56,503 nucleotides of DNA from a virus (IMGVR_UViG_3300034180_000036:1-56503), one strand, 5' to 3'. Positions 36,315-55,281 are shown, counted from the stretch's first letter. Numbers and translations are program-made. Notes: a model not told the origin generated them from the letters alone.

Positions 36315-36590
36315 TCAACGAGCTTTCGTGGGGACCAACACGCACCACGCGTCCCCCACCTTCACGTACCGACCAAAGACGGCCGCGCGCGCCACCGCCG
36401 CCTGAGCGCCGGCCAGAACAGCCTCGGCTTCTGCGCGGCGCTGACTGCCCATCCACCAGGCACGCTCGTCGCGGTCCCATTTGGCGCCGGCATCGCGGAG
36501 GGCGTCCTTTGCCGCATACGGCGCGTTCCGGAAGTAGAGCCGCCGCCCGACCTGCTCGATGGTGATGTTCGTCGTGTTCGTCGTCGTCAT
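36315..36590 (-). CDS. Small protein with a PY..KD.L...GAKWD...AWW (DUF5710-like) motif; leaderless start
   Basis: Starts MTTTNTTN directly after repeat P1. Confidence 0.6.
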   Translation of the reverse strand: MTTTNTTNITIEQVGRRLYFRNAPYAAKDALRDAGAKWDRDERAWWMGSQRRAEAEAVLAGAQAAVARAAVFGRYVKVGDAWCVLVPTKAR

Positions 36591-36638
36591 GCCCCTGTTT
36601 GTACGGCTGACCGTCGCGCAAGTCAAGCGTCAAAACGC
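36588..36638 (-). promoter_or_regulatory. Repeat element P1 (box + promoter + leaderless ATG)
   Basis: GCGT-TTTG-ACGC TTGACT N17 TACAAA N7 ATG(36590). Confidence 0.8.
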
Positions 36639-36700
36639 TTGTCTTTCGGTCCTCCCACGGAGACGGAACAGATCGGCCGCATACGGCGCTTAGGATACGC

Positions 36701-36991
36701 GTGATGGAGGTCGACGTTCTGAAGCGGGTCTTCGCCGCGATCGTCCGCGAGCACACCCTCGCCGTCGAACAGCTTGAACGTCGGACCGCGGACCTCGCCG
36801 ATGCGCGGAAGAAGATCGCGGCTCAGGAGACGGAGATCATGCGGCTCCGTCGCGAGCTCCTCGCCGCCTACGACCAAGAGGCGATGCGAGACGCGTTCGA
36901 TTCTGACGATGGGCTCTTGGCGATCCTCGAGCCCGAAGAAGCTCAGCCGGCCGCCGGCTCGAACACGAAGCGCCAAGACGATCCCGCCTGA
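36701..36991 (+). CDS. Coiled-coil hypothetical protein (~96 aa)
   Basis: Heptad-like helical sequence; divergent from P1. Confidence 0.55.
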   Translation: MMEVDVLKRVFAAIVREHTLAVEQLERRTADLADARKKIAAQETEIMRLRRELLAAYDQEAMRDAFDSDDGLLAILEPEEAQPAAGSNTKRQDDPA

Positions 36992-37431
36992 TGGCGGATG
37001 AACGCGGAGAGCGCCGCCTCGACGAAGGGGGCCCACGCTTCTTCGTTGTCGATCCTCAGCTTCATCGTGCCGTCGCGCATTGCGTGCTCACGGCTCCACG
37101 GAAGGTAGAAGCTCACCTCGATGTAGCCGTCGCCGATCGCGACCTGGCTCAGCTTCCAGAACCGTTCCCCGTCGGGCACGTCGTCGACCCGTTCCATGTG
37201 GACCTTGACGCAACCGTTCGGCCTGAACGGCGCGGCCCCTTCGTGCTTCAAGTCGAGCTCGCCGCTCGGACTCGCCTTCCAGAACCGTTCGTTCTCGGCG
37301 CTGCCGTCTTCCTCGATACGATCGGCAATCCGCCGCGGCTTGACCGGATAGAAGTCGAGCAGGAAGAGCCCTTCCCACGTCTCGTTCGAATGCATGCAAC
37401 GCAGCTTCGCGGTGATGATCTTGTCGTTCAT
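36943..37431 (-). CDS. Hypothetical phage protein (162 aa)
   Basis: GGAGG SD before ATG 37431; AKLRC...ENERFWKASPSGELDL motif. Confidence 0.6.
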   Translation of the reverse strand: MNDKIITAKLRCMHSNETWEGLFLLDFYPVKPRRIADRIEEDGSAENERFWKASPSGELDLKHEGAAPFRPNGCVKVHMERVDDVPDGERFWKLSQVAIGDGYIEVSFYLPWSREHAMRDGTMKLRIDNEEAWAPFVEAALSAFIRHQAGSSWRFVFEPAAG

Positions 37432-37523
37432 GTGGCCTCCATCCGGCGCGCGGGCCGGCGTGATGTTCGGTTTGGAGGCCACGCGATTGCCCCGGCCCGT
37501 GGCACTGCGCCGGTTCGAAGAAC

Positions 37524-38237
37524 CTACCGCTCTTCGGCCGACCGTGGCAAGCGCGCCGCGACGAAGGCCCGCTCGGGCGGATCGAGCATGCGACGGATCT
37601 GCGTCGGGTCGAAACGACGTCCGGTCCGAGAGCGACGGCCGAGCGCATCGAGGCGATCAGCGATCTTCCGGAACGAAGTCCCCGTCGCGCGAAGCGACTG
37701 AACGTGTGCGACGACCGTTTGCTCTTCCGCGTCGCGAACGAGCGACCCGTCGCACGCGCGCCACCCATACGGAGGCTCGCCACCGACGTAGCCGCCCCGG
37801 CGAGACTTCGAAGCGAGAGCGCTCGACGTTCGCGACGCGCCCTCTTCGCGCTCCCACTGGACGACGCTCGCCATGATGTTGATGACGAGCCGTCCCATCG
37901 GTGAGGCCGTGTCGAGCGACTCGACGACAGAGAAGAGCCGGCGCCGCTTCGCGAAGGTCTCGTCGAGCAACGCGTTGAGGTCGAGCAACGAACGCGTCAG
38001 CCGATCGAGTTTGTAGACGATCAGCGCGTCGGCACGCTCTTCGAGCGCGGCCAACGCGGCCTGAACGCCAGGACGTTCGAGCGTCTTTGCCGACCAGCCA
38101 GCGTCCTCGAAGATCTCGACGAGCTCGAGGCCTTGCGCCACGGCGTAGGCCGTCACGCGCTCCCGTTGCATGTCGAGACTGATCCCGTCGTCAGCCTGTC
38201 CCGCTGTTGAAACGCGGACGTATGCGACCGCTTTCAT
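37524..38237 (-). CDS. Serine recombinase (resolvase/invertase catalytic domain plus C-terminal DNA-binding domain, 237 aa)
   Basis: YVRVST catalytic Ser motif, EDAGWSA...RPG, VYKLDRLTRS, DT.SPMGR, QWERE, GGEPPYGW, SFRKIA..L. Confidence 0.92.
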   Translation of the reverse strand: MKAVAYVRVSTAGQADDGISLDMQRERVTAYAVAQGLELVEIFEDAGWSAKTLERPGVQAALAALEERADALIVYKLDRLTRSLLDLNALLDETFAKRRRLFSVVESLDTASPMGRLVINIMASVVQWEREEGASRTSSALASKSRRGGYVGGEPPYGWRACDGSLVRDAEEQTVVAHVQSLRATGTSFRKIADRLDALGRRSRTGRRFDPTQIRRMLDPPERAFVAARLPRSAEER

Positions 38238-38470
38238 CGACCACCACCCGCGATCAGCGTCAGGGTCGGCGGGGCCCCGGAGGTCTCCCACGCGTCGAAG
38301 ACTTCGCGTGCGATCCGTTCGTAGAGCTCGAACTTCGGCGTCGCGCCGAAGCGTGCGTGGTAGGCGCGCGCGGCGATCGCGAGCGCGCGCGGCGACGGAT
38401 GCCCGTCCGGACAGAACTTCGGACCGACGCGCGCCTTCATCCACGCGCGGATCCGCGCGGGCGCGATCAC
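38234..38470 (-). CDS. Hypothetical protein (78 aa)
   Basis: GTG start overlaps the upstream stop (GTGA), and its own stop overlaps the recombinase ATG (ATGA). Confidence 0.55.
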   Translation of the reverse strand: MIAPARIRAWMKARVGPKFCPDGHPSPRALAIAARAYHARFGATPKFELYERIAREVFDAWETSGAPPTLTLIAGGGR

Positions 38471-39901: not shown

Positions 39902-40089
39902 CGCGTGTACCGCCGCACGCCGCCGAAGACGGACCAGGACGCGACGACGTCGCCGTCGCTGTTGCGAATCGACGCCTCGAACCCCGCGCCCTTCGCGGCC
40001 TCGAGCGCCGCATCGACGGTCGGGAAGACGCCGTCTTTGGTGTACCCGAAGTTGGTGAAGAAGACCGTGAAGCCCGTCGTCGTCGTCAT
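39898..40089 (-). CDS. Small hypothetical protein (63 aa), leaderless
   Basis: MTTTTGF after P2; stop overlaps the next ATG. Confidence 0.65.
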   Translation of the reverse strand: MTTTTGFTVFFTNFGYTKDGVFPTVDAALEAAKGAGFEASIRNSDGDVVASWSVFGGVRRYTR

Positions 40090-40136
40090 GCTCTTGTTGT
40101 ACGGCCGCCCGTCCGCAAAGTCAAGCATCGAAATGC
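40087..40136 (-). promoter_or_regulatory. Repeat element P2
   Basis: GCAT-TTCG-ATGC TTGACT N17 TACAAC N6 ATG(40089). Confidence 0.85.
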
Positions 40137-40140
40137 ACGA

Positions 40141-40575
40141 TTATCGATCGGCCGTTAGCCGGCGCCGGATCGCGGCCACGTCTTCCGCGATGGCGCCGTC
40201 GTAGGCTTCGCCTCGCACGATCTCGTCGAGATCGACCGGCATCGCGCGACTGGCCAGCTCGCCACGCGACCAGGCGTCTCGCATCGCCCAGGCGTAGACG
40301 GCCGCCGCCTGACGCGTCAACGGCGCCTTGAGACTCGTCATGCTCATCACGGCGGCGATTTCGGCAGCCGTCCCCGGCCCCAACGCCGTGCCCGACTTCG
40401 CGCGCTCGGCGAGCTCGAGCAGGTGCGCGAGGTAGAGGGGCGTCGAAGCGATCGCGAGCAACGGCGCCGTCGGCGTGCAGGCCGGAAACGAGAGCTCAGG
40501 CGTGGCGGCGAGCACGTCCTCGGCGATCCCCATGCACTCGATCAGCCAGCCGGCCGGCTCCGGAATCGGGATCAC
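40141..40575 (-). CDS. Hypothetical protein (144 aa)
   Basis: GTG start overlaps the upstream stop (GTGA); LYLAH..EL.ER...T.AEI. Confidence 0.55.
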   Translation of the reverse strand: MIPIPEPAGWLIECMGIAEDVLAATPELSFPACTPTAPLLAIASTPLYLAHLLELAERAKSGTALGPGTAAEIAAVMSMTSLKAPLTRQAAAVYAWAMRDAWSRGELASRAMPVDLDEIVRGEAYDGAIAEDVAAIRRRLTADR

Positions 40576-40919: not shown

Positions 40920-41128
40920 GAGAGCTCCGCCACCGCGAAGGTGCGGCGCGAGTCGCAGAGGAACCAGGCGCCCGACTTCACGTTGCGAACGAGGCCGCGC
41001 TCGCCGCCGCGGGGGCCGCGAACCGAGAGAACGCCCTTCTCGAGGGTCCCGCTCACGACGGTGAAGGTCTTCGCCTTCAGGTGCCCGTCGAGGCGGATGG
41101 TCAGCGTCGTGTTCGTCGTCGTCGTCAT
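40916..41128 (-). CDS. Small hypothetical protein (70 aa), leaderless
   Basis: MTTTTNTTLT after P3; GPRGG motif. Confidence 0.65.
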   Translation of the reverse strand: MTTTTNTTLTIRLDGHLKAKTFTVVSGTLEKGVLSVRGPRGGERGLVRNVKSGAWFLCDSRRTFAVAELS

Positions 41129-41175
41129 GCTTCTCTTGTACGGTCGCCCGTCGGCAAAGTCAAGCATCGAAGTGC
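41126..41175 (-). promoter_or_regulatory. Repeat element P3
   Basis: GCAC-TTCG-ATGC TTGACT N17 TACAAG N6 ATG(41128). Confidence 0.85.
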
Positions 41176-41181
41176 ATTATT

Positions 41182-41925
41182 TTAGACGGCGCGACGCCAT
41201 CGACGCTTTCGGCAGATCGGAGCCCGATCCAGGCGGCGCCGGCTCGGTCGATCGCGCGTGCCGCCTCGACTCAAGGCCTCTTCCACGAAGCCCGCCGCTC
41301 GCAGGCTTGCGCCGAGTTCGGTCTCGAGCGTGTAGGTGATCAGAGCATCGGCGATCCCGAGAGCTCGCGCCTTCCGCACACATGCCCCATAGAGCGCGCT
41401 CGCGATGTTCCGGCGAAGAGCCGGATGGCCCCACGCGCACACGCGCGTGACCTCGAGCGTGCGCGGCTCAGCCGCCTCGAGCAGCCGCGAGACCGGCCGC
41501 CCGACGACCGCCACGCCGACCAGCACCCCGCCGTTGTAGGCCGCGACCGAGAACTTGTGCGAGGTCGGCGCGTCCGGCATGTGTCGGTGATGGGCCTCGA
41601 CAGCGCTGAAGACGAAGTCGCGCCAGCCGGCCGGCGACCGAACGGCCGGCCGCCCACGGCGCTCCCAGAGCTCGCCAGGCGCCTCCGTCTCGATCCGCCC
41701 GCGGACGGTGCCATCGTCCGTCACCTCGCGCACGTCGCAGCTCAGAAGCTCGCTCAGCATCGTCTCGAGAGGGAAGCCGGCGAAGGCTTCGAAGCCGAAG
41801 GCCGCGACCTCCGCTTCGGCGGCCTCGCAGCACGGCGCCCACTCGAGCCAGCGATCGCCGTCGCCGCGAAACACCTCGACGTGCTCGTCGAAGGGGGTCT
41901 CGCAGAACCCGCACTCGCCGAACAT
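41182..41925 (-). CDS. XF1762-family / Mom-like GNAT-fold protein with an N-terminal Cys cluster
   Basis: V.AHHRH, HKFSV, LVGVAVVGRPVSRLL, TLEVTRVC, S.LYGAC.R.ARALG, ITYTL..E.GASLRAAGF. Confidence 0.8.
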   Translation of the reverse strand: MFGECGFCETPFDEHVEVFRGDGDRWLEWAPCCEAAEAEVAAFGFEAFAGFPLETMLSELLSCDVREVTDDGTVRGRIETEAPGELWERRGRPAVRSPAGWRDFVFSAVEAHHRHMPDAPTSHKFSVAAYNGGVLVGVAVVGRPVSRLLEAAEPRTLEVTRVCAWGHPALRRNIASALYGACVRKARALGIADALITYTLETELGASLRAAGFVEEALSRGGTRDRPSRRRLDRAPICRKRRWRRAV

Positions 41926-42218
41926 CAGGCCGCCGCCTGAAGGCGCCCGCGAAGCTGAAGCGCGCGCGCCTGAAACAGGCTGATCGTGTCCGAGACCTGC
42001 GCGACGAGCTCGCCGTCGCGGTCGTCGAAGATGTCACGAAGTTCGACGTGAAGGCCGCCGAGCGCGACGTACGTGGCTTCCACGAGGGGGAGCGCGTCAC
42101 GCGCGTCGCCGCCGCGGGCCATGAAGCGGCAGACCTCGGGGAGGGCGCCGGCCAGATCGCCAGCGCGGGCGAGGAGAGCGGAGAGAGCGGCCGTCGGGTT
42201 CGTCGTCGTCGTCGTCAT
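41925..42218 (-). CDS. Hypothetical protein (97 aa), leaderless
   Basis: MTTTTTNP after P4; stop overlaps the next ATG. Confidence 0.6.
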   Translation of the reverse strand: MTTTTTNPTAALSALLARAGDLAGALPEVCRFMARGGDARDALPLVEATYVALGGLHVELRDIFDDRDGELVAQVSDTISLFQARALQLRGRLQAAA

Positions 42219-42265
42219 GCTCTTGTTGTACGGCTGCCCGTTTGGAATGTCAAGCATCGAAGTGC
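42216..42265 (-). promoter_or_regulatory. Repeat element P4
   Basis: GCAC-TTCG-ATGC TTGACA N17 TACAAC N6 ATG(42218). Confidence 0.85.
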
Positions 42266-42266
42266 A

Positions 42267-42297
42267 GAAAATTGACACGCGCACACGGCACGTGTCA
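42267..42297 (-). terminator. Possible intrinsic terminator upstream of P4
   Basis: Minus strand TGACACGTGC-CGTGT-GCGCGTGTCA (10-bp stem with one G-U pair) followed by ATTTT. Confidence 0.45.
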
Positions 42298-42412
42298 CGG
42301 TCCGTCATTGATAGAGGGGGAGGCGGGCTCACCGCGGCGGCGCGGAAGGGCGATCGGAGCTCGAGACGGGCGCGAGCACCCTGACGGGTGTGCGCCCGGT
42401 CCCTCCCCGCCT

Positions 42413-42826
42413 TCAGCGCCCAGCGCACTCGGGACCGAAGCCGCTCTCGACGCTCGAGGGGACCGTGAGGGCCCGTCCGCACTTGCCACATCGGCCTTCG
42501 TGGTACAGCTTCGCCGGGATGTCCGCGCCCGCCTGAAGGCGCCCGAAGACCCACCCGAAGCCCTTCACCGAAGGGGCGGACGCGCTGATCGTCGAGCGCT
42601 TCCCCGGCACGAAGCGCCGGCCGTCGAAGATCGTCCCGATGAAGGTGAAGTCGGTCGTGTTGCTCGGCCCCGTGAGCACCTTCACGAAGTGAACGCCCTG
42701 CGCGTCCTTCTTCGCGGACACCTTGTAGGTGAAGCGCCCGCCGCGCTCGCTCTCGACGGTGAAGACCGCTCGCCCTGCGAGCATGAAGCTGATCGGGTTG
42801 CCGTTGATCTCGTGTCGCGTCGTCAT
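42413..42826 (-). CDS. Protein with a C-terminal DUF6011-like zinc motif (137 aa), leaderless
   Basis: AG.A.FTV.S..G.RFTYKV, FVKVLTGP.N, HEGRCGKCGRALT.P.S...GFGPECA. Confidence 0.75.
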   Translation of the reverse strand: MTTRHEINGNPISFMLAGRAVFTVESERGGRFTYKVSAKKDAQGVHFVKVLTGPSNTTDFTFIGTIFDGRRFVPGKRSTISASAPSVKGFGWVFGRLQAGADIPAKLYHEGRCGKCGRALTVPSSVESGFGPECAGR

Positions 42827-42873
42827 GCCCCTGTTATACGGGCGGCCCGTCGCGAAGTCAAGCACCGATATGC
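42824..42873 (-). promoter_or_regulatory. Repeat element P5
   Basis: GCAT-ATCG-GTGC TTGACT N17 TATAAC N6 ATG(42826). Confidence 0.85.
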
Positions 42874-42879
42874 TGATTT

Positions 42880-43392
42880 TCAGACGGCGCGCGCGGGACG
42901 ACTGCGCGCGCGCTCGAGCAGGCCGGCGAGCTCGTCGGGGGGAATGGCGAGCCCGCCGGCCCGAGTCACCGCCTCGTCGAGCCGTTGGGGGGCCCGACCG
43001 ATGAACGCGAAGCCGCGCCGGATCGTTTCGACGTAGGCCGTCGACGGCTGTCCGCGCGCTTCGGGTCGGTTGTGGACGTAGACCCACAGATCCGCACCGC
43101 GCTGCGCGCCCTGCCGCACGCGAGCGGCCACGCGACTGTAGACGTGCGGCGCGCCCTCGAAGCGGTCCAGGATGTCGAGATCGGCCCTCGAGACCTCCCA
43201 AAGCACGCCGGTCGTCATCGCGCCGGCGCACTTCTCGATCGTCGCGACCGCGCCGCCCCATCCGGCCGACCGGCCGACGAAGGCGAGGCGGTGCCCGGCA
43301 AGGTCGTACACGCCACGGAAGGTGGCGGATCGGCAGCGCTGCCGCATTTGCTTGGGGTCCATGTTGGACCCGAAGGCGAAAACCAAAGGCAT
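42880..43392 (-). CDS. Gamma-glutamylcyclotransferase (GGCT/AIG2-like) family protein (170 aa)
   Basis: FAFGSNM...QM..RC, GVATI, GVLWEV...D...LD.FEG.P..Y, PS..Y...I..G; AAAGGGG SD. Confidence 0.88.
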   Translation of the reverse strand: MPLVFAFGSNMDPKQMRQRCRSATFRGVYDLAGHRLAFVGRSAGWGGAVATIEKCAGAMTTGVLWEVSRADLDILDRFEGAPHVYSRVAARVRQGAQRGADLWVYVHNRPEARGQPSTAYVETIRRGFAFIGRAPQRLDEAVTRAGGLAIPPDELAGLLERARSRPARAV

Positions 43393-43471: not shown

Positions 43472-43810
43472 TCACGCGAAGCACGCGAGAAGCCGCGCCG
43501 CCGCCCGCTGGTCCATCCAGACAGGGATCGCGGGAACGAGCGAACGCGTTTCCCACTTCCGCGGCTCGAGCTCGCCGCGCAGATCGAAGACGCGGTAAGC
43601 GCGCTCGGTCATCGTGGGGGTGCGGCCGTAGCGGCCGAACTCGACGAGGCCCTTGTCGTAGAGCCCCTGAAGGACGTTCGCCGCGATCTGAACGGTCCAC
43701 AGGCCGGCCGAAACGAAGATCTCCTCGAGCGCGAGGAACTCGTCGCGCGTCACGCGCACGAGGCCGGTGTCGATCACGTTCGGGATGCTGCGCTTCGTCG
43801 TCGTCGTCAT
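43472..43810 (-). CDS. Hypothetical protein (112 aa), leaderless
   Basis: MTTTTKR after P6. Confidence 0.6.
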   Translation of the reverse strand: MTTTTKRSIPNVIDTGLVRVTRDEFLALEEIFVSAGLWTVQIAANVLQGLYDKGLVEFGRYGRTPTMTERAYRVFDLRGELEPRKWETRSLVPAIPVWMDQRAAARLLACFA

Positions 43811-43857
43811 GCCCCTGTTATGCGGCCGCGCCGACGCGAAGTCAAGCACAAAAATGC
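43808..43857 (-). promoter_or_regulatory. Repeat element P6
   Basis: GCAT-TTTT-GTGC TTGACT N17 CATAAC N6 ATG(43810). Confidence 0.85.
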
Positions 43858-43957
43858 TGGCCTTTGTCGTTTTTCTCGTCTCGCGCCTGACGCGCCGTGC
43901 GCCGTTCTGACGGCCTCGAGCGCCCGCCCCCACGCGAGGCGCGCCGAGGTCGCTCGA

Positions 43958-44690: not shown

Positions 44691-45617
44691 TCACGCCGCG
44701 GCGCGGGCGCGGGGGGCGCGGGTCCCGCCCGGGCGATCCGACGTCCGGCTTCCGCCGCGGACCGAGCCGGGAAGCGCCGCGATCAGGTGGTCGCGAACGT
44801 TCTTGTAGTAGTCACCCGTAAGGCCGAGACGGTGGTAGAGGAACCGATACATCGTCCACTTGGCGTCGTCGTAGGAGACGGCCGCCTTCGCGACGCGGAT
44901 GTTCTTCGCGCTCTTCGCGTAGGCGACGAGGCCGAGGCAAAGCGCGATGTAGGAGCGGACCTTGCCCGCGTGCAAGGTGCCGTTAAACCAACGGAATTCG
45001 ACCGTGCCGCGGAACCACACGTTGTGGAGGTTGAGACCGGCGTAGCGCGTGCCGTCGTAGTGCGACGGCGCGGGGTTGTTGTGGCCGTACCACGCGACGT
45101 TCGCGTCGCTGAGCGTCTTCGCGCCCTTGAGAGCCTTCGCCTTCTCCTCGGTCGTGGCCTTGCAGTAGCGGGCCGCCCGCGAAGCGTGAACGCCGAGCGC
45201 GCGGGTGATCAGCTCTTCGCGGCTGTAGACCAGCGCGGCGAGGTTGCCGACCGCCTTCGCGGTGAGGCCCTGAGCGCCCACGTGGACGTGGATCCCGCAC
45301 TGCTCGTCGCAGCGCGCGCCGGCCCGACGAAGAGCGCGAACGACGCGCTGGACCGTTTCGACATCCTCGCGCCCCTGAAGGATCGGCGAGACGATCTCGG
45401 ACGAAACGCCCGAAAGCGAAGAGTCGTTCATGCAGCGCCACTTGCGGCCGTCGGCGAGGCGCACGTAGACCGACTGGTAGTAGTCGCGTCCGTGCTCGAG
45501 GATCCCGCCGAGCTCGGCCTGAATCGCCTGCGCGGCGCGGAGGTTGTTGATCCGCTTGGTCTCGATCTCGATGCCGAAGGTCAGGTTCTCAGTGGCCGCG
45601 TTGTTCGTCGTCGTCAT
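44691..45617 (-). CDS. Amidoligase (COOH-NH2 ligase, Amidoligase_2-like; 308 aa), leaderless
   Basis: TFGIEIE, W....DSSL, EIVSPIL, CGIHVHVG, RY.GLN, GTVEFRWFNGTL. Confidence 0.9.
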   Translation of the reverse strand: MTTTNNAATENLTFGIEIETKRINNLRAAQAIQAELGGILEHGRDYYQSVYVRLADGRKWRCMNDSSLSGVSSEIVSPILQGREDVETVQRVVRALRRAGARCDEQCGIHVHVGAQGLTAKAVGNLAALVYSREELITRALGVHASRAARYCKATTEEKAKALKGAKTLSDANVAWYGHNNPAPSHYDGTRYAGLNLHNVWFRGTVEFRWFNGTLHAGKVRSYIALCLGLVAYAKSAKNIRVAKAAVSYDDAKWTMYRFLYHRLGLTGDYYKNVRDHLIAALPGSVRGGSRTSDRPGGTRAPRARAAA

Positions 45618-45664
45618 GCTTTTGTTATACGGATTCTCTCCCGCGATATCAAGCATAAAAATGC
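45615..45664 (-). promoter_or_regulatory. Repeat element P7
   Basis: GCAT-TTTT-ATGC TTGATA N17 TATAAC N6 ATG(45617). Confidence 0.85.
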
Positions 45665-45741
45665 ACGACATCGAAGAAAGTTTATTCGCGCGTCGCGTCA
45701 TCGCGCGGACTTGAGGGCCATGGACCTTGGCTGATAGAGGG

Positions 45742-45777: not shown

Positions 45778-46044
45778 TCAGGCGGCGAGCGGCTCGAGCC
45801 GCTCGAAGGCCGCCGCCGCCCGCGCGGCGACGCGCAGGATCACCCCGATGTAGTAGCGGCGATGGAAGGTGTCGGCGGTCGCGCGGTGCGCCCGGCGCTG
45901 AATCGCGCGGGCTCTTCGAGCGAGGCGCCGCGCTTCGTGGGCGTCGAGGTCGTCGAGGCGAAGCCAGGCGTCGATCAGGTCGGCCTCGGCGGCCAAACGT
46001 TCCAGTTTACGGGTGGATAGGCGTCGGATGTGCGTCGTCATCAT
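45778..46044 (-). CDS. Hypothetical helical protein (88 aa), leaderless
   Basis: MMTTHI after P8. Confidence 0.55.
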   Translation of the reverse strand: MMTTHIRRLSTRKLERLAAEADLIDAWLRLDDLDAHEARRLARRARAIQRRAHRATADTFHRRYYIGVILRVAARAAAAFERLEPLAA

Positions 46045-46092
46045 GCCGTCGGTTATCCCATGACGGCAACGCAAAGTCAAGCATTCAAGCGC
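46042..46092 (-). promoter_or_regulatory. Repeat element P8
   Basis: GCGC-TTGA-ATGC TTGACT N17 GATAAC N7 ATG(46044). Confidence 0.7.
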
Positions 46093-46340
46093 TTGTCTTT
46101 GCGCGATTCGACCTCGCGCCGTAGAAGGTGGCAGACGGCCGACTCGGTCACGCCGAGCTCATCGGCGATCATCGCGTGCGTGGCGCCCGCGCGCGAGCGC
46201 TCGCGCGCGTACATGGCGCGGACGCGCGCGAGCTCGGCCGTTGCCTCTTTCAGCTTGGCGGTTCGCTCGCGCGCGTTGGCTTCCGCGGCGCGGGTTCGCT
46301 CGCGCATGCGCGCGACCTCGGGGGTGTCGCCGTTCATCAC
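46077..46340 (-). CDS. Small coiled-coil plus HTH DNA-binding protein (87 aa)
   Basis: GATHAMIADELGVTESAVCHLL is a classic HTH pattern. Confidence 0.7.
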   Translation of the reverse strand: MMNGDTPEVARMRERTRAAEANARERTAKLKEATAELARVRAMYARERSRAGATHAMIADELGVTESAVCHLLRREVESRKDKRLNA

Positions 46341-46759: not shown

Positions 46760-46859
46760 GAAGAGCCCTTTCGGTAGGCGCCCCCGCGGGGCGCCCGGGT
46801 TTGAGGCATGGTCCCGGACCCGGCACAGAATCGCCCGAGCCCTTCGCTTCCCCGTTGCT

Positions 46860-46906
46860 GATTCTGTTGTACGGCCAACACGCGCCGAAGTCAAGCACTC
46901 GCATGC
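46860..46906 (-). promoter_or_regulatory. Repeat element P9 (not followed by ATG; ~100-nt leader)
   Basis: GCAT-GCGA-GTGC TTGACT N17 TACAAC AGAATC AGC. Confidence 0.8.
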
Positions 46907-46913
46907 TTGTTTT

Positions 46914-47840
46914 TCACGCGCGCGCCACGGCGCGGATCACCGCGGCGGCCAACGGCGGGGGGATTGCGTTTCCGACAAGACGGGTCCCCGGCGAGAGCGC
47001 ACGCGGGAGCTTGTAGTGGTCGCCGAAGCCCTGTCCTCGCGCGAGCTCGCGCACGGTCAAGGGGCGGATCCGATCGCCCTCGACCAGGTGCCAGTGCGAT
47101 CCCACGGTCGTGATCGTCCGCATGTGACCGTCGAGCGGCACGCCCGAGCACGATGTGACGTGCTGAACGAGGAAGGTCCGCCCGTGCCGTTTGCGGCCTC
47201 GCGCGACGCGCCGTCGCACGCCGATCGGCTTCGACGCGACGGGGGCCCAACCGCCCGCGCACGGCTCGAGGATCGTCCGCACCGGCGGCGCCGGCGACCG
47301 TTCGAAAGCGAGCTCGGGATGGGCCCCGAGGAACGCCGTCACCACAACGCGATGGCGACGTTGCGGCACGCCGAAGTCGTGCGCCCACAGCTTGTGGATC
47401 CGCGCTTCGTAGCCGAGCGCCTCAAGCGCGGCGAGCCATGGCCTGAAGAGGATCCAACGCGTGAACGGGATCGTGTTCTCGACGATCAGCGCACGCGGGC
47501 GGATGACCTCGGCCGCCGTCACGACAGCCCATGCGGTGTTGCGATCCGCGTCGTGACGCATCGCCACGCGACCGGACCGATCCGCCTTGCGCCCGGGCTG
47601 ACCGCACTCCGCGTGCCCGCGGCACGAAGGCGACGCGAGGATCAGATCGCAGCCGCCGACCAGGTGTCGAAAGTCGGCCTGGTGAAGGTCTTGCACGGCG
47701 TGCTCGACCTCGGGGTGGTTCCGCGCGTGGTATTCGACCGCGAGGCGGTTGTGATTCGCGGCCCATCGCACCGGCACGCCGGCGAGGCGCGCCCCTTCGG
47801 TGAAGCCGCCGGCGCCGGCGAAGAGGTCGATCGCTTTCAT
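46914..47840 (-). CDS. DNA (cytosine-5)-methyltransferase (308 aa)
   Basis: IDLFAGAGG (motif I), ASPSC (IV), IVEN (VI), FGVPQRRHR (VIII), R.LTVRELAR.QGF (IX), GNAIPP (X). Confidence 0.93.
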   Translation of the reverse strand: MKAIDLFAGAGGFTEGARLAGVPVRWAANHNRLAVEYHARNHPEVEHAVQDLHQADFRHLVGGCDLILASPSCRGHAECGQPGRKADRSGRVAMRHDADRNTAWAVVTAAEVIRPRALIVENTIPFTRWILFRPWLAALEALGYEARIHKLWAHDFGVPQRRHRVVVTAFLGAHPELAFERSPAPPVRTILEPCAGGWAPVASKPIGVRRRVARGRKRHGRTFLVQHVTSCSGVPLDGHMRTITTVGSHWHLVEGDRIRPLTVRELARGQGFGDHYKLPRALSPGTRLVGNAIPPPLAAAVIRAVARA

Positions 47841-48130
47841 CGGACCGGCTCCATCATCCACGCCATGAGGTAGTTTCGGCGACGGTTCGGGAGGCTGTGC
47901 GCCGAGAAGAAAGCGACGTCGATCGCGAGCTCGGTCAGGAAGCGCGCGTAGGAGCCGGCCGAATCCGACCCGGTGCCGTCGTCGTCCCCGGCGCGGCCGG
48001 TCGTGCCGTCGACGAAGCTCTCGTCGCCGATGCCGGCTTCACGGCAGACCGCGCGGGCGCGGGCGAAGACCTGGCGGAGGGCCGGGAGGGTGGCGTTGCG
48101 GGGCGTCGTGGGGGCCGTCGTCGTCGTCAT
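47837..48130 (-). CDS. Hypothetical protein (97 aa), leaderless
   Basis: MTTTTAP after P10; stop overlaps the MTase ATG. Confidence 0.6.
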   Translation of the reverse strand: MTTTTAPTTPRNATLPALRQVFARARAVCREAGIGDESFVDGTTGRAGDDDGTGSDSAGSYARFLTELAIDVAFFSAHSLPNRRRNYLMAWMMEPVR

Positions 48131-48177
48131 GCTTCTGTTGTACGGGCGTCCGGTCTCGAAGTCAAGCATCGAAGTGC
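48128..48177 (-). promoter_or_regulatory. Repeat element P10
   Basis: GCAC-TTCG-ATGC TTGACT N17 TACAAC N6 ATG(48130). Confidence 0.85.
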
Positions 48178-48208
48178 AAAACTTTTCGTCCGCCCCTCGA
48201 AGAATTGT

Positions 48209-48263
48209 GCATTTGCATGCTTGACTTCGCCGCGCGGTGGCCGTACAACACAACAGAAGCATG
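48209..48263 (+). promoter_or_regulatory. Repeat element P11 (divergent from P10; 5-bp ACAAC duplication)
   Basis: GCAT-TTGC-ATGC TTGACT N17 TACAAC ACAAC AGAAGC ATG(48261). Confidence 0.85.
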
Positions 48264-48425
48264 ACGACGACGGACATGACCGAGACCGACTTCGCGCCCT
48301 GGCCCGACCCCACCGACGGCGACGCCGCCGCCGCCGAAGACTTCATCGACCTCACCGCGTTTTACGCCGAGTTCCTCTCCCTCGCCTGCCGCGGCGACGA
48401 TGGGCTGTGGTATCTCGCCGACTGA
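48261..48425 (+). CDS. Small acidic protein (54 aa)
   Basis: MTTTDMTETDF after P11. Confidence 0.55.
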   Translation: MTTTDMTETDFAPWPDPTDGDAAAAEDFIDLTAFYAEFLSLACRGDDGLWYLAD

Positions 48426-49176: not shown

Positions 49177-49196
49177 TGCCTTCGTTTCCTTTCGTC

Positions 49197-49619
49197 TCAG
49201 AAGTCCTCGGGGAAGCCGATCGTCACGACGGGCTCGTGATCGTCGCCCGGCCCGATGTCGACCGTGAGGATCGTGTTGCGCTTGCGGCTGCCACGCCGCG
49301 GCATGATCACGACGAAGTTCCGCCGGCTCTGATCGCCACCCACCGCACGCGCGGCAAGGGAGGCCATCCACAGCACGTCGTGCGCGCGCCCGCGCACGTC
49401 CGCGAGGCCGTCGAGGCTCTTCGGAATCGCCTCGATCGCGGCCCACAGGGAACGCGTCAGGGCGACGGGGACCTTGAAGCCGCCCATCATCCCTTCGGGG
49501 CCCGCGCTCGCCCACTTCGTCACGTCGACGAGCTCGCCATCGGCGATCGCCTGCGCGCGGGTGTAGACGCTGATCGGAGCGCCGAAGAGGTCGGTGAGGG
49601 TCGTGTTCGTCGTCGTCAT
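49197..49619 (-). CDS. DUF6573-like protein (140 aa), leaderless
   Basis: ISVYTRAQAIADGELVDVT, GFKVPVALT, GR..DVLW, GPGDD.EPVVTI..PED. Confidence 0.8.
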   Translation of the reverse strand: MTTTNTTLTDLFGAPISVYTRAQAIADGELVDVTKWASAGPEGMMGGFKVPVALTRSLWAAIEAIPKSLDGLADVRGRAHDVLWMASLAARAVGGDQSRRNFVVIMPRRGSRKRNTILTVDIGPGDDHEPVVTIGFPEDF

Positions 49620-49666
49620 GCTTCTCTTGTACGGTCGCCCGTCCGCAAAGTCAAGCATCGAAATGC
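49617..49666 (-). promoter_or_regulatory. Repeat element P12
   Basis: GCAT-TTCG-ATGC TTGACT N17 TACAAG N6 ATG(49619). Confidence 0.85.
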
Positions 49667-49678
49667 TGTTTTTCTCGG

Positions 49679-49716
49679 TTGACTTTCTCGCCGTGCGGCC
49701 GTACAACAAGAGCATG
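49679..49716 (+). promoter_or_regulatory. Repeat element P13 (divergent from P12; no box of its own)
   Basis: TTGACT N17 TACAAC AAGAGC ATG(49714). Confidence 0.8.
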
Positions 49717-50007
49717 ACGAACGGCGCACTCATCAGCATCTTTCTCGGCGGCGCGACGGCCCCCTCGGCCGTTGCGGTCTCGCACCTCTTCGGCCGCGTC
49801 GCAGAGGTCCGCGATCGCGCCGTCAGGCTCGAGCTCGACCCCGAGGGCGGGGGCCGGCCCTGGACGATCTGGCTCCCCCGCAAGGCACTCGTCGCCCGCA
49901 AGGGCGGCTCGGGTGGATACGAGCTCGCCCGCTGGTTCAAGCCCGACGCGCGCCAGGCTCGCGCGATCGAGCGCTGCGCATGGGTCGCCGGCGTCTCGTG
50001 CGCGTAG
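49714..50007 (+). CDS. Hypothetical protein (97 aa), leaderless
   Basis: MTNGALISI after P13; IWLPRKAL...LARWF. Confidence 0.6.
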   Translation: MTNGALISIFLGGATAPSAVAVSHLFGRVAEVRDRAVRLELDPEGGGRPWTIWLPRKALVARKGGSGGYELARWFKPDARQARAIERCAWVAGVSCA

Positions 50008-50149
50008 CTCCGGAAGGGGGCTCGAGGGGCCCGACTCCCACGCGCGCAACATGGGGCCCGAGCTCGTGCTCGAGGATGTCGCGCAACATGCGCCACTGGC
50101 CTTCCCAGACGTGTTCGGTCCGCGCGTCCCATTCCGCGCCGTGGTCTGA

Positions 50150-50176
50150 CGCGCGCAAAGTCAAGCACGGGAACCG
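50150..50176 (-). repeat. Degenerate half-copy P14 (-35 half only)
   Basis: CGGTTCCCGTGC TTGACT TTGCG with no -10 or ATG; shares GTTCCCGTGCTTGACTT with P16. Confidence 0.45.
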
Positions 50177-50179
50177 TTG

Positions 50180-50989
50180 TCACCCGAAAGATTCGTCGTC
50201 GTCGAGCAAGTCGATCGCGCGCGTCAGACTGGTCATCGTCGTCTCGACGGTGCCAAGCAATCGCGGCCGATGGTGAAGCTCGCGCGCGGGCGAGACCGGC
50301 GGGAGCGCCGTCATCATGAGCGTCGGCGCATCGTCTTCCACGAACGCCAGGACGCCGGCGGGGCCGGTCGCGTCGGGCTCGTACCGAACCGGACCGTGAC
50401 CGGGCACGATCGTTTGCCAGATCCCGCCCTGATCTTCGACCTCGGTCCGCGGAACGAAACGCCCATCGAGCGGGCCGCCGGCGAGGCGCACGCCGTTGCG
50501 GAAGAGCTCGAGGTCGATCACCGCGCGCGGCGAGATCCATCCGGGGTGCTCGCCGGCGCCCGGATCGCCCACCGGTTGCTGACCTATGCGCGCCTCGCAC
50601 CGCTCGCATGAACCGGTGACGAAGCCGTCGTCGCCCTCGTGCCCCCACGGGGTGAGATGCGTCGTCGCGCCGCAGAACGGGCATGCGACTTCGGACGGCC
50701 ACGGCCCGAGCGTCGAAAGCGTCGAGAGCGTCGGCTCGGCGTTGGGTTCCCAGCTCTTCGCCTCGGTCTTCGTTTCGAACGGACCGAGACACCAGCCGCC
50801 GACGTCCACGAACCAACGCGAGATCAGAACGCTGTTCGTTCGGTCCGGGTCCCGCGGAGCCTCGCGCATCTCGCGCTCGCTCAGCCGTTCGACCAACACG
50901 CCGATCGGCACCGCCTCTTTTGCGAAAGGCCATGCAAGTTCGCTTGCATGATCCTTCTTCCTCCGCAGCAAACGCGACAGCACGCTCAT
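50180..50989 (-). CDS. Hypothetical protein with a CPFC/CERC zinc ribbon (269 aa)
   Basis: AAGGGGG SD and ATGA overlap; CPFCG...CERC; GGPLDG motif. Confidence 0.55.
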   Translation of the reverse strand: MSVLSRLLRRKKDHASELAWPFAKEAVPIGVLVERLSEREMREAPRDPDRTNSVLISRWFVDVGGWCLGPFETKTEAKSWEPNAEPTLSTLSTLGPWPSEVACPFCGATTHLTPWGHEGDDGFVTGSCERCEARIGQQPVGDPGAGEHPGWISPRAVIDLELFRNGVRLAGGPLDGRFVPRTEVEDQGGIWQTIVPGHGPVRYEPDATGPAGVLAFVEDDAPTLMMTALPPVSPARELHHRPRLLGTVETTMTSLTRAIDLLDDDESFG

Positions 50990-51330: not shown

Positions 51331-51419
51331 CTCCGTTCACGAGCGCGCCTGTCCGCGCACGTGACTTTCGACCGATGGGCCCATCCCACCGGCGTGATCT
51401 GTCGGGCGTGGCCGCACCT

Positions 51420-52542: not shown

Positions 52543-52590
52543 TTTCTAACCCTCCCACGGAAGCACGCGCGATCGACGTCGACCAGTCGA

Positions 52591-53751: not shown

Positions 53752-54173
53752 CACCCAAGGTGCCTTTCGATCCAGGGCCACGGGGTCGGCGATCGCATCG
53801 CGCGGAAGCGGTTCTCGGCCGCCGTGAAGAGCTGCGCCGAGAACCACCATCCCCACGTCGCGCCGGCGAGCGCGCGCGTGAGCCAGATCCCCGCGCGGCG
53901 CCACGCCGGCCACTCGGCCCACGTCGGCCGAGCCCAATCGGGGAGGTCGACGCCGGTCCGCCCGCGAACGATCGCGCGGAAGGTAGCCCACGGCCGATCG
54001 CGAGCGGGGGCCCCACAGACGTCGCACGTTCCGAGCGGCGGCGCGTGAACATCCATCCGGCGACGAGAGAGGCGCGCGACCGAGCCCCATCCCGCGTTGA
54101 CCCACACGTTTTGGCCGTCGGCGATCACTTCGAACAGCGCGCCATCGCCCATGAGCCAATCGCGTTCGGTCAC
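53751..54173 (-). CDS. Trp-rich hypothetical protein (140 aa)
   Basis: Coupled to both neighbours; DVH...CDVC. Confidence 0.5.
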   Translation of the reverse strand: MTERDWLMGDGALFEVIADGQNVWVNAGWGSVARLSRRRMDVHAPPLGTCDVCGAPARDRPWATFRAIVRGRTGVDLPDWARPTWAEWPAWRRAGIWLTRALAGATWGWWFSAQLFTAAENRFRAMRSPTPWPWIERHLG

Positions 54174-54601
54174 GGCGAAGGCTCCGACGAGACGACGACG
54201 CCGCCCTCGCCCCACTCGGTCTTGCAGTAGCAACACCCGTCGTGGCTCCACGAATGATTGCAGTGATGGCCGCACGCGCGCTCGCTCTTGGGGCAGAGCT
54301 CCGCGTCTTCGCGATGACAGTCCTCGCAACCGGGATCGCGAAGCGCGAGCTCGCCATCGTCGACCTCGACGACCTCGAGCGCGACGGCGGCGCGGATCGC
54401 CGCGAGACACTCGGCGGGGGTGAACTTGCGACGGTACTCTTGGCGGACGCCCGCGATCGCGCCGACAAGGAAGGCGCGCGCGGTTGCGGCGAGCTCGACG
54501 GCGCCGGCCTCTTCGATCATGCGATCGCGCTCGGCTCGACGCTCTTCGCCTTGCTCGCGGATCACGCGCGACCACCCGCCCACGAAGCCCTCGTCGCTCA
54601 T
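54170..54601 (-). CDS. Hypothetical protein with a C-terminal Cys/His cluster (143 aa)
   Basis: ATGA overlap; CEDCH...CPKS..ACGHHCNHSW.HD.CC.C. Confidence 0.6.
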   Translation of the reverse strand: MSDEGFVGGWSRVIREQGEERRAERDRMIEEAGAVELAATARAFLVGAIAGVRQEYRRKFTPAECLAAIRAAVALEVVEVDDGELALRDPGCEDCHREDAELCPKSERACGHHCNHSWSHDGCCYCKTEWGEGGVVVSSEPSP

Positions 54602-54918
54602 CCGTTGGCGACCAGTCCACGGCCGGCGAGGTAGAGCTCCGCCGCGTGCTCGAAGGTCTCGGCGACGCCGACCGCGTTCACGCCCTTGAGCGCCGGGCCC
54701 ATCGCACGGATCGCTTCGCGCGCGGCCTCGAGCTGAATCATCGCGTTCCACTCGTTCACAAGGAACGCGCCCGGATCGTCGCCGCACACGGCGAACAGGT
54801 CGCCGGGCACCTTGAGCTGCGCGAGCGCGCGCGCGCGATCGAAGCCGCTGAAGGCGGCGCTTTCGCGCACGGTCGTCATGGCTTCCTCGATGCGAGGGAT
54901 CGTCACCGCCGTCTTCAT
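54598..54918 (-). CDS. Hypothetical protein (106 aa), leaderless
   Basis: MKTAVTIPR after P15. Confidence 0.6.
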   Translation of the reverse strand: MKTAVTIPRIEEAMTTVRESAAFSGFDRARALAQLKVPGDLFAVCGDDPGAFLVNEWNAMIQLEAAREAIRAMGPALKGVNAVGVAETFEHAAELYLAGRGLVANG

Positions 54919-54966
54919 GCTGATCTTTGTGCGCTCATCCATAGGCACTGTCAAGCACCGTTATGC
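54916..54966 (-). promoter_or_regulatory. Repeat element P15
   Basis: GCAT-AACG-GTGC TTGACA N17 CACAAA N7 ATG(54918). Confidence 0.7.
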
Positions 54967-55049
54967 CGCGTGCCGCGTATCCTTTCGGAATCGCAGTGAA
55001 GAAAGCCAACGCTGCGCGCCCGCACCCCTTTCCCTCGCGACCCCTTTTG

Positions 55050-55238
55050 CTAGACGTCGATCGACTTCTCGAAGTCGCACCAGCGACAGGCCTTGCCGAT
55101 CACCAGGCCGCCGGCCTTGATCCTCACGAGCGCGTAGCCGCGCCCACAAGCCGGGCACCGACGGTCGGCGGCGATGTCGCGCATCCGCCGACGCAGGCCT
55201 GCTTTCCGTCGCCGTTGTGCGTCTGCGTCTCGGCTCAT
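55050..55238 (-). CDS. Small zinc-ribbon protein (62 aa)
   Basis: CPACG...CRWC; ATG 55238 follows P16. Confidence 0.6.
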   Translation of the reverse strand: MSRDADAQRRRKAGLRRRMRDIAADRRCPACGRGYALVRIKAGGLVIGKACRWCDFEKSIDV

Positions 55239-55281
55239 GCGCCCGACAGTGCGGGCCAACCGGGCCAGAAGTCAAGCACGG
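55236..55281 (-). promoter_or_regulatory. Divergent repeat element P16
   Basis: GTGC TTGACT N18 CACTGT N7 ATG(55238); only a half box. Confidence 0.5.

What the first reader, a model, noticed from the sequence alone, without database searches (positions are those of the whole stretch)
36588..55281. Array of 16 operator-promoter-leaderless-start elements dividing the accessory region into self-contained cassettes
Seen: a ~50-bp element recurs before ATGs at 36590, 40089, 41128, 42218, 42826, 43810, 45617, 46044, 48130, 49619, 54918, 55238 (minus) and 48261, 49714 (plus), plus one leadered copy (46860-46906) and one half copy (~50164). Consensus: GCRY-N4-RYGC TTGAC(T/A) N17 (ending CCG) TACAAC/TATAAC N6-7 ATG. 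In nine copies the first T of TTGA(C/T) is exactly 35 nt from the A of ATG, and the 6-7 nt gap leaves no room for a normal SD leader, so transcription should start at or next to the AUG. Each copy heads 1-5 unrelated genes (amidoligase, GGCT, Mom-like, TGT-like, C5-MTase, DUF6573-like). I saw no copy in the 35-kb structural module. Inference: a co-regulated, modular early/host-takeover gene-cassette system, conceptually like the repeated early-promoter modules of T4-like phages but leaderless and with a built-in operator.
Basis: partly seen in the sequence, partly recalled or inferred. Interest (0 to 1): 0.9.

Follow-up and report, generated by a model that had tools for sequence, protein, structure and literature searches.

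The report
Repeated leaderless promoter cassettes in phage
An uncultured high-GC tailed phage places the same bacterial-type promoter directly against the start codon of at least 14 accessory-gene units, so their messages probably have no leader; this is a tidy new variant of the repeated promoter cassettes already described in T4-type phages.

Summary
A profile built from the 14 start-codon-linked copies recovers all 14, plus the leadered copy and the half copy. All 16 lie in 36.5-55.3 kb and none in the 35-kb structural module. Shuffled sequence gives no match.

Each unit reads: A-rich tract, 12-bp dyad GCA-N6-TGC abutting the -35, TTGACT, 17 bp, TACAAC or TATAAC, 6-7 nt, then ATG followed by (ACG)2-5.

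Leaderless expression is inferred, not shown. The support:
- the -10-to-ATG spacing matches the usual -10-to-start distance;
- no Shine-Dalgarno site precedes these starts;
- 14 of 14 starts are ATG;
- the 5' coding ends are unusually unstructured.

No -10 hexamer carries T at -7. That fits alphaproteobacterial RpoD promoters, so such a host is likely but unproven.

The "operator" reading of the dyad is untested, and covariation is not significant. Cassette shuffling is also unshown. No relative carrying the array could be fetched. The one visible indel in a 92-97% relative is not at an element.

The closest known kind is the PeSL cassette of T4-type phages (PMC2839356). This scan has noted similar leaderless arrays in many other phages. 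Verdict: real, and a new variant of a known kind.

The parts
36579..36650 (-). Element copy 1. Dyad GCGTTTTGACGC, TTGACT, N17, TACAAA, 7 nt, ATG at 36590 (MTTTNTT...). The TGA inside TTGACT is the stop codon of the predicted upstream ORF 36623-36976.
   Evidence: (E 1.4e-17)
40078..40148 (-). Element copy 2. GCATTTCGATGC, TTGACT, N17, TACAAC, 6 nt, ATG at 40089. Heads about 5 genes, including the 555-aa DpdA/TGT-like lead and a serine recombinase.
   Evidence: (E 4.5e-22)
41117..41187 (-). Element copy 3, ATG at 41128. The upstream Mom-like gene stops (TAA) in the A-rich tract, 18 nt before the -35.
42207..42277 (-). Element copy 4, ATG at 42218 (MTTTTTN...). Heads a 97-aa ORF and the Mom-like/XF1762-family gene. 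Preceded by the terminator-like hairpin 42273-42297 with ATTTTCT.
42815..42885 (-). Element copy 5, ATG at 42826 (DUF6011 protein). The upstream GGACT gene stops (TGA) 18 nt before the -35. GC hairpin at 42887-42913.
43799..43869 (-). Element copy 6, ATG at 43810, -10 CATAAC. Heads a 112-aa ORF and GGACT gene 2.
45606..45676 (-). Element copy 7, ATG at 45617, -35 TTGATA, -10 TATAAC. Heads Amidoligase_2 (Pfam match starts at residue 10) and GGACT gene 1.
46033..46104 (-). Element copy 8, ATG at 46044 (MMTT...), -10 GATAAC. The TGA inside TTGACT is the stop of the upstream 87-aa ORF with a weak HTH match.
   Evidence: (E 1.1e-12)
46856..46918 (-). Leadered copy. Full dyad, TTGACT, N17, TACAAC, but no ATG at +1. 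The next ORF starts at 46759 behind a GAAAGGG Shine-Dalgarno site, giving a leader of about 100 nt.
   Evidence: (E 3.6e-8)
48119..48189 (-). Element copy 9, ATG at 48130. Heads a 97-aa ORF and the C5 cytosine methyltransferase. Divergent partner of the plus-strand copy at 48197-48272.
48197..48272 (+). Plus-strand copy, ATG at 48261, with 11 nt between -10 and ATG (a short leader is possible). Heads two plus-strand ORFs.
   Evidence: (E 2.4e-18)
49608..49678 (-). Element copy 10, ATG at 49619 (DUF6573 protein). Divergent partner of the plus-strand copy at 49655-49725.
   Evidence: E 5.2e-21
49655..49725 (+). Plus-strand copy, ATG at 49714. No dyad of its own; the partner's dyad lies at -59 to -48.
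   Evidence: (E 1.4e-14)
50138..50187 (-). Half copy. CGGTTCCCGTGC, TTGACT, no recognisable -10 and no ATG. Points antisense into the plus-strand ORF 49714-50007. Probably a relic.
   Evidence: (E 0.004)
54907..54978 (-). Divergent copy, ATG at 54918, GCATAACGGTGC, TTGACA, -10 CACAAA. Heads about 9 genes down to 50180.
   Evidence: (E 5.2e-12)
55227..55299 (-). Most divergent copy, ATG at 55238, poor -10. Preceded by a 13-bp-stem hairpin at 55289-55327. Heads a 62-aa CxxC...CxxC ORF.
   Evidence: (E 8.1e-8)
36297..36309 (-). Terminator-like hairpin with a T-rich tail after the gene of copy 1, between the array and the structural module.

Best explanation
Each unit is a compact expression cassette head read by the host's primary-sigma RNA polymerase.

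The parts, in order:
- an A-rich tract at about -58 to -48. It may act as an UP-like element, and it often holds the stop codon of the gene before;
- a 12-bp dyad GCA-N6-TGC at -47 to -36;
- a consensus -35 (TTGACT), a 17-bp spacer and a -10 of the type TANAWC without T at -7;
- 6-7 nt later, the A of ATG.

Transcription should therefore start on or within a base of the start codon. The mRNA would then be translated without a leader, helped by an obligatory AUG and by an unstructured (ACG)n / poly-Thr 5' coding end that belongs to the repeated unit.

Sixteen copies split 19 kb of DNA-modification and other accessory genes into co-expressed units of 1 to about 9 genes. Some units are separated by GC-rich hairpins.

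Shown: the repeat, its anatomy, its distribution, its orientation, the lack of Shine-Dalgarno sites, and the low 5' structure.

Inferred: promoter activity, +1 at the AUG, early timing, an alphaproteobacterial-type host, and the dyad as a regulator site.
For: Copy number and distribution: 16 copies in the accessory region, none in the structural module. None in shuffled sequence.

Geometry: the spacer is 17 bp. The -10-to-ATG gap is 6 nt in 9 copies and 7 nt in 3. Across nine species the commonest distances are 17 bp between -35 and -10 and 6 bp between -10 and the start site (PMC8407463, section 5 read).

Orientation: both plus-strand copies precede plus-strand ORFs in an otherwise minus-strand genome.

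Ribosome binding: the structural genes of this phage carry strong Shine-Dalgarno sites (GGAGG, AAGGAG). Two of the 14 starts (46044, 54918) contain one of my five loose 4-mers, and 12 contain none (re-read of the upstream sequences against the window).

Start codon: 14 of 14 are ATG, against 34 of 57 for my heuristic calls of the other genes.

5' structure: the first 42 nt fold at -4.8 kcal/mol against -10.1 for 57 other genes, at equal GC (Mann-Whitney p = 7e-6). This matches the determinants of leaderless translation measured in Caulobacter: accessibility, leader length and AUG (PMC8459731, abstract read).

The -10 hexamer: 0 of 15 has T at -7, and 8 of 15 fit TANAWC exactly. That is the Caulobacter RpoD -10 consensus GCtANAWC, which goes with the -35 consensus TTGaCgS (PMC8144410, passage read).

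N-terminal add-on: the Pfam domains of the amidoligase and the DUF6573 protein begin 5-9 residues after the poly-Thr start. An amidoligase homologue at 39% identity in another 67%-GC viral contig has a Shine-Dalgarno site and no MTTT (one sequence seen in two loci).
Against: There are no RNA data. No RNA run holds this DNA, so no start site is mapped.

A -10 without T at -7 would be weak on most non-alphaproteobacterial polymerases, and the host is unknown.

The 16 copies share descent, so the statistics on spacing, structure and start codon are not independent samples. The shared (ACG)n by itself lowers the folding energy.

Two copies have poor -10 hexamers (54918, 55238). One has 11 nt before the ATG (48261). 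One is leadered (46894).

The consensus scan that demands T at position 6 of the -10 finds 0 promoters in this region.
Confidence: 0.65

Rival explanations
1. Activator-dependent (middle-type) promoters. The dyad centred at -41.5 would bind a phage or host activator that contacts sigma region 4. The defective -10 (no T at -7) would make the promoters silent without it. This is the geometry recalled for lambda PRM, where cI at OR2 abuts the -35 and the cI mRNA is leaderless.
For: The dyad abuts the -35 in 12 of 16 copies, with GCA and TGC nearly invariant while the inner bases vary. 0 of 15 -10 hexamers has T at -7.
Against: The -35 is already consensus (TTGACT in 12 of 16), which is unusual for class II activated promoters. 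No DNA-binding protein was identified in the window beyond one weak HTH match below Pfam's cut-off. In an alphaproteobacterial host, lack of T at -7 is normal.
Confidence: 0.15
2. The dyad is an operator for a repressor, either an early shut-off protein or a lysogeny repressor, that silences all units at once.
For: The same conservation pattern of the dyad. GCAY-N4-RTGC occurs 14 times against a mean of 3.7 in 100 first-order Markov simulations, and 11 of those 14 abut a -35.
Against: No repressor candidate was found and no integrase of usual size is present. The serine recombinase is only 237 aa. A site at -47 to -36 only partly overlaps the polymerase footprint. Conservation may simply reflect common descent of the copies.
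Confidence: 0.25
3. The units are primarily recombination substrates. They would serve homologous exchange as in PeSL shuffling, or be sites for the 237-aa serine recombinase, with promoter activity secondary. The in-frame (ACG)n would let any ORF be joined without loss of frame.
For: Similarity between copies is confined to about -12 to +44 from the -35 T, and the flanks are unrelated. The downstream edge of similarity varies (+12 to about +27) and the ACG number varies from 2 to 5. Two copies share the last codons and the stop of their upstream genes. A serine recombinase lies within the array.
Against: No relative shows a swap at an element. A 92-97% relative is syntenic over the 7 pieces listed, and its one clear indel (424 bp, 53757-54180) is not at an element. 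No joint with both ends in elements was listed. The dyad (12 bp) is short for a serine-recombinase crossover site (recalled).
Confidence: 0.2
4. The promoters are real but not leaderless. Transcription would start a few bases upstream, or the units would mainly be read through from upstream promoters, and the ATGs would be translated by Shine-Dalgarno-independent initiation on an unstructured region.
For: One copy works with a 100-nt leader (46894) and one has 11 nt before the ATG (48261). Start-site choice can vary by 1-2 nt (general knowledge).
Against: Nine copies keep exactly 6 nt between the -10 and the ATG. The ATG and low-structure features match leaderless determinants.
Confidence: 0.15

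Closest known systems
PeSL (promoter-early stem-loop) cassettes of T4-type phages RB49 and phi1 (Arbiol et al. 2010, PMC2839356; abstract and section 13 read)
   Same: A repeated composite unit concentrated in the variable, accessory part of the genome, directly upstream of small genes of unknown function. It has an AT-rich tract upstream of the -35 that holds the stop codon of the gene before, a strong sigma-70-like promoter, and dyads or hairpins within or beside the promoter.
   Different: PeSLs end with a Shine-Dalgarno site and a start codon. Here there is no leader, and the unit continues into the ORF as ATG(ACG)n. The short dyads here are weak as stem-loops and show no significant covariation. 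Shuffling and mini-circles are not shown here. The phage is not T4-like by its terminase and capsid matches.
Leaderless gene architecture with the -10 next to the ORF, as in Deinococcus-Thermus (PMC12340547, abstract and passages read), Caulobacter (PMC8459731, abstract), and the predicted leaderless SigA promoters of Cluster O mycobacteriophages (PMC4351075, passage read)
   Same: The -10 lies 6-7 nt from the AUG, there is no Shine-Dalgarno site, the start is AUG, and the 5' end is accessible. Cluster O phages have 8-9 predicted SigA promoters, three of them predicted to be leaderless.
   Different: Here one stereotyped unit is repeated 16 times with a consensus -35, an abutting dyad and a conserved poly-Thr start. 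The -10 lacks T at -7, unlike TANNNT.
Alphaproteobacterial RpoD promoters (Caulobacter TTGaCgS / GCtANAWC, PMC8144410; lack of -7T, PMC8407463, and PMC7703639, search listing only)
   Same: TTGAC at the -35, and TANAWC at the -10 with C at -7.
   Different: The host is not identified. Phage copies are far more uniform than host promoters.
Lambda PRM (recalled, no call): operator OR2 abutting the -35 and a leaderless cI mRNA
   Same: A dyad adjacent to the -35, and transcription starting at the AUG.
   Different: PRM is a single weak promoter in an immunity switch. Here 16 copies with a consensus -35 drive unrelated accessory genes, and no repressor is known.

Membership tests
PeSL cassettes of T4-type phages | Repeated motif containing a sigma-70 consensus promoter | tested here: met
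   TTGACT-N17-TAYAAC in 16 profile hits. The -10 deviates at its last base.
PeSL cassettes of T4-type phages | AT-rich tract upstream of the -35 that holds the stop codon of the upstream gene | tested here: met
   An A-rich tract is present. The stop codon lies 15-19 nt before the -35 in 5 copies and inside TTGACT in 2 copies, out of 14 copies with an upstream co-directional gene.
PeSL cassettes of T4-type phages | Stable stem-loop in or beside the promoter that acts as terminator or attenuator | tested here: inconclusive
   Only 4-bp dyads lie inside the unit, with 76% of cells paired and no significant covariation. Strong GC hairpins lie upstream of several copies, but only 42273-42297 and 36297-36309 have T-rich tails.
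PeSL cassettes of T4-type phages | Shine-Dalgarno site and start codon at the 3' end of the unit | tested here: not met
   6-7 nt between the -10 and the ATG leave no room for a leader. Only the copy at 46894 is leadered.
PeSL cassettes of T4-type phages | Gene gain, loss and replacement between close relatives bounded by the units; mini-circles | tested here: inconclusive
   The only near relative is seen as short contigs, and its one clear indel is not at a unit. No other genome with the unit was found.
Leaderless genes with the -10 next to the ORF | The -10 element ends 5-8 nt before the start codon, with no Shine-Dalgarno site | tested here: met
   The gap is 6 nt in 9 copies, 7 nt in 3 and 8 nt in 1 of the 14 ATG-linked copies. 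12 of 14 contain none of my loose Shine-Dalgarno 4-mers.
Leaderless genes with the -10 next to the ORF | AUG start and an accessible 5' end | tested here: met
   14 of 14 are ATG. Folding energy is -4.8 against -10.1 kcal/mol.
Leaderless genes with the -10 next to the ORF | Primary 5' end of the mRNA at the start codon | not testable with these tools
   No RNA run holds the sequence.
Alphaproteobacterial RpoD-type promoter | TTGAC at the -35 together with a -10 of type TANAWC lacking T at -7 | tested here: met
   15 of 16 have TTGAC and 1 has TTGAT. 8 of 15 -10 hexamers fit TANAWC, and 0 of 15 has T at -7. The consensus comes from PMC8144410.
Alphaproteobacterial RpoD-type promoter | The host is an alphaproteobacterium | not testable with these tools
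   No tRNA gene. No close cultured phage. The only named prophage relative is in a Myxococcota MAG, at 55% terminase identity and 55% GC.
Operator/repressor-controlled promoter set | A dyad site bound by a cognate DNA-binding protein | not testable with these tools
   The dyad is conserved. No regulator was identified.

The most novel reading that the evidence does not exclude
The unit is a portable plug-in expression adaptor. A host-type promoter, a leaderless AUG and an in-frame (ACG)n poly-Thr linker would travel together. Recombination or slippage inside the trinucleotide run would then join any incoming ORF to ready-made transcription and translation signals without breaking the frame. 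A single dyad-binding factor would switch the whole set.

This would be a phage gene-capture system that supplies the N-terminus of the captured protein, which goes beyond what is described for PeSLs.
Probability: 0.12. Interest if true: 0.7.

Novelty: new variant of a known kind. Interest (0 to 1): 0.45.

Why it matters
If the start sites are where the geometry predicts, this phage expresses most of its DNA-modification and accessory genes through one stereotyped leaderless promoter. That would add a high-GC, non-T4 lineage to the phages that organise variable genes as promoter-headed cassettes.

It would also give a natural set of 14 matched leaderless 5' ends on unrelated proteins, useful for studying leaderless initiation. 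The -10 without T at -7 offers a sequence-only hint of the host class for an uncultured virus. The conserved poly-Thr start suggests that the cassette contributes coding sequence as well as signals.

The kind of system is not new. PeSLs are published, and this scan has already noted many leaderless promoter arrays in other uncultured phages.

Tried and rejected
The same element elsewhere. Exact-pattern scans of viral, metagenome and genome collections found no other DNA with the unit. A looser pattern gave 6 single-match contigs that I did not follow up.

Relatives by terminase:
- 283 viral stretches encode a relative at 45-58% identity; 80 were fetched.
- Six genome contigs match.
- None of the fetched loci shows the promoter-to-ATG pattern above chance.
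- 11-mer repeat counts found only unrelated motifs.

Expression. No RNA holder is listed for this DNA.

Deletion or circle junctions between units. None was listed with both ends in elements. The joints shown have sides of 20-29 letters and are unreliable. Contig breaks of the probable source run fall in elements at 4 of 7 internal breaks, which I read as an assembly effect of the repeats rather than as biology.

Structure in the unit. RNAalifold gives only a weak 6-pair pairing between ATGCTT and AAGCAT (-2.6 kcal/mol). My two named dyads show no significant covariation (29 of 500 and 74 of 500 shuffles reach the observed values).

Other negative results:
- Rfam: no match in the window.
- Regulator search: no confident DNA-binding domain in 20 small proteins scanned.
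- Host by homology: the best plasmid match of the serine recombinase is Azospirillum at 48% identity, too weak to use.
- The phiYS40 paper (leaderless middle and late genes, recalled) is not held. I saw only its title in a reference list.
- Supplementary files of papers were not consulted. Tables S1 and S2 of PMC8407463 may hold per-species -10 frequencies that bear on the host inference.

Full report
What the window is. It is a 56.5-kb linear IMG/VR virus record that CheckV rates 56% complete. It has about 67% GC and no tRNA gene. Nearly all genes lie on the minus strand.

Coordinates 1-35300 hold a myovirus structural module: large terminase, portal, MuF-like protein, a 1255-aa polyprotein, capsid, sheath, tape measure and baseplate. 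No cultured phage is close. A megablast of the first 20 kb finds nothing. The best tblastn identities are 28% for the terminase and 36% for the capsid.

The observation. A profile of the 14 copies recovers them at E 4.5e-22 to 8e-8. It also recovers the leadered copy at 46862-46914 (E 3.6e-8) and the half copy at 50144-50179 (E 0.004). The best hit in the structural 36 kb has E 4.6. Two patterns give 7 matches each against 0 in 100 shuffles.

Anatomy. Reading 5' to 3', each unit has:
- an A-rich tract;
- a 12-bp dyad with GCA and TGC nearly invariant and the inner bases variable, abutting the -35;
- TTGACT (12 of 16 copies);
- a 17-bp spacer that usually ends in CCG;
- a -10 hexamer: TACAAC in 6 copies, TATAAC in 2, TACAAG in 2, and TACAAA, CATAAC, GATAAC and CACAAA once each. 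One copy has no clear hexamer and the half copy has none;
- 6 nt (9 copies) or 7 nt (3 copies);
- ATG.

The unit does not stop at the ATG. Ten copies continue ATGACGACGACG. The ACG number varies from 2 to 5, and three copies share MTTT(T)NTT(L/N)(T/I), that is, similarity to about +27. Similarity between copies is limited to about -12 to +44 from the -35 T, pairwise identity is 27-82%, and the flanks are unrelated.

On the upstream side the previous gene often ends inside the unit. Its stop codon lies 15-19 nt before the -35 in five copies. In two copies the TGA of TTGACT is itself the stop codon. Longer junctions of 95-159 nt hold strong GC hairpins, but only 42273-42297 and 36297-36309 have T-rich tails.

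Why leaderless is the best reading:
- Across nine species the commonest promoter distances are 17 bp between -35 and -10 and 6 bp between -10 and the start site (PMC8407463, section 5). That puts +1 on the A of ATG in nine copies.
- The phage uses strong Shine-Dalgarno sites on its structural genes. Re-reading the sequences against the same window, 12 of the 14 element-headed starts contain none of my loose 4-mers. The two that do are 46044 and 54918.
- All 14 starts are ATG, against 34 of 57 for my heuristic calls of other genes.
- The first 42 nt fold at -4.8 against -10.1 kcal/mol at equal GC (p = 7e-6).
- These are the three determinants of leaderless initiation measured in Caulobacter (PMC8459731, abstract).
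- Pfam domains start 5-9 residues after the poly-Thr. An amidoligase homologue in another 67%-GC viral contig has a Shine-Dalgarno site and lacks MTTT. So the poly-Thr is an add-on supplied by the unit.

Caveats: the copies are not independent, the shared (ACG)n itself lowers structure, and no RNA data exist.

Host type. None of the 15 -10 hexamers has T at -7, and 8 fit TANAWC. The Caulobacter RpoD consensus is TTGaCgS / GCtANAWC (PMC8144410). Most alphaproteobacterial promoters lack T at -7, whereas more than 90% of promoters in the other groups analysed have it. Actinobacterial promoters lack the TTG of the -35 (PMC8407463). I therefore favour an alphaproteobacterial host, at about even odds. 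Phyla without start-site data, such as Myxococcota, are not excluded. One prophage relative at 55% terminase identity sits in a Myxococcota MAG of 55% GC.

The dyad. GCAY-N4-RTGC occurs 14 times against a mean of 3.7 in simulations, and 11 of the 14 abut a -35. Its centre is at -41.5. It could be a repressor or an activator site, but I found no regulator and covariation is not significant. A second, GC-rich dyad in the spacer is present in most copies with varying sequence but is paired in only 65% of cells.

Cargo:
- Amidoligase_2;
- two GGACT proteins;
- a Mom-like/XF1762 protein;
- a C5 methyltransferase;
- DUF6573, DUF6011 and ASCH proteins;
- a 237-aa serine recombinase;
- a 555-aa protein with only a weak DpdA/TGT-like lead.

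Units hold 1 to about 9 genes.

Cassette shuffling. This is not shown. No other genome with the unit could be found. Eighty terminase relatives lack it near the terminase gene. A soil run holds a relative at 92-97% identity that is syntenic over the 7 pieces listed. Its one clear difference, a 424-bp gap at 53757-54180, is not at an element.

Comparison with what is known. PeSLs of T4-type phages share the AT-rich tract with the upstream stop codon, the strong promoter, the nearby dyads and the location before small unknown genes, but they end in a Shine-Dalgarno site (PMC2839356). Cluster O mycobacteriophages have predicted leaderless SigA promoters (PMC4351075). This scan has already recorded many leaderless promoter arrays in other uncultured phages, including one high-GC phage with a dyad. 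None is a look-alike of this DNA.

Verdict. The feature is real, its mechanism is plausible but unmeasured, and it is a new variant of a known kind.

Noticed in passing
window 28524-28570 (minus): Inside the structural module, the 77-aa ORF after the MuF-like gene has the same geometry though it is not a family member: TTGACG, N17, TAAAAA, 7 nt, ATG. The TAA stop of the MuF-like gene lies inside the putative -10. It may be a separate leaderless promoter for a small gene that follows a possible toxin-like C-terminal domain.
   Followed up: partly
window 36621-36626 and 46075-46080 (minus): The -35 hexamer TTGACT supplies the TGA stop codon of the predicted upstream ORFs 36623-36976 and 46077-46340.
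   Followed up: yes
window 46760-46859 (minus): The roughly 100-nt leader of the leadered copy holds a strong GC hairpin (GGGCGCCCCGCGGGGGCGCC) and a 17-codon upstream ORF whose stop overlaps the ATG at 46759.
   Followed up: no
window 53757-54180: A 92-97% relative in a soil run lacks these 424 bases. One 1273-nt contig joins 53756 to 54181, removing the start of the ASCH-domain gene.
   Followed up: partly
window 32732-34225 (terminase) and loci L011-L090: The terminase belongs to a large uncultured family: 520 proteins at E <= 1e-20 and 283 matching viral stretches. Contigs reach about 120 kb and the 80 fetched loci span 31-66% GC. No cultured phage is above 28% identity. One prophage copy sits in a Myxococcota MAG (L091).
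   Followed up: partly
L024 and L026: The 11-mer CGGTTGAAGCG occurs 18 times in 21 kb and 11 times in 9.7 kb, on both strands, inside and between genes, with a cluster of four direct copies at L024 3197-3260. Its function is unknown.
   Followed up: no
L074 1258-2010: Long tandem array of 15-nt units (GAGCCGATTTGAGCG-like), possibly coding for a pentapeptide repeat.
   Followed up: no
L097 about 2545-2900: About three tandem copies of a roughly 96-nt repeat lie just upstream of the Shine-Dalgarno-led amidoligase gene of another 67%-GC viral contig.
   Followed up: no
window 38234-39901 (minus): This 555-aa protein has no Pfam, PHROG, NCBIfam or PDB sequence match. The ESM Atlas gives only weak leads: 'T4 beta protein family', DpdA in 17% of one cluster, and a TGT-fold row at TM 0.38.
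   Followed up: partly
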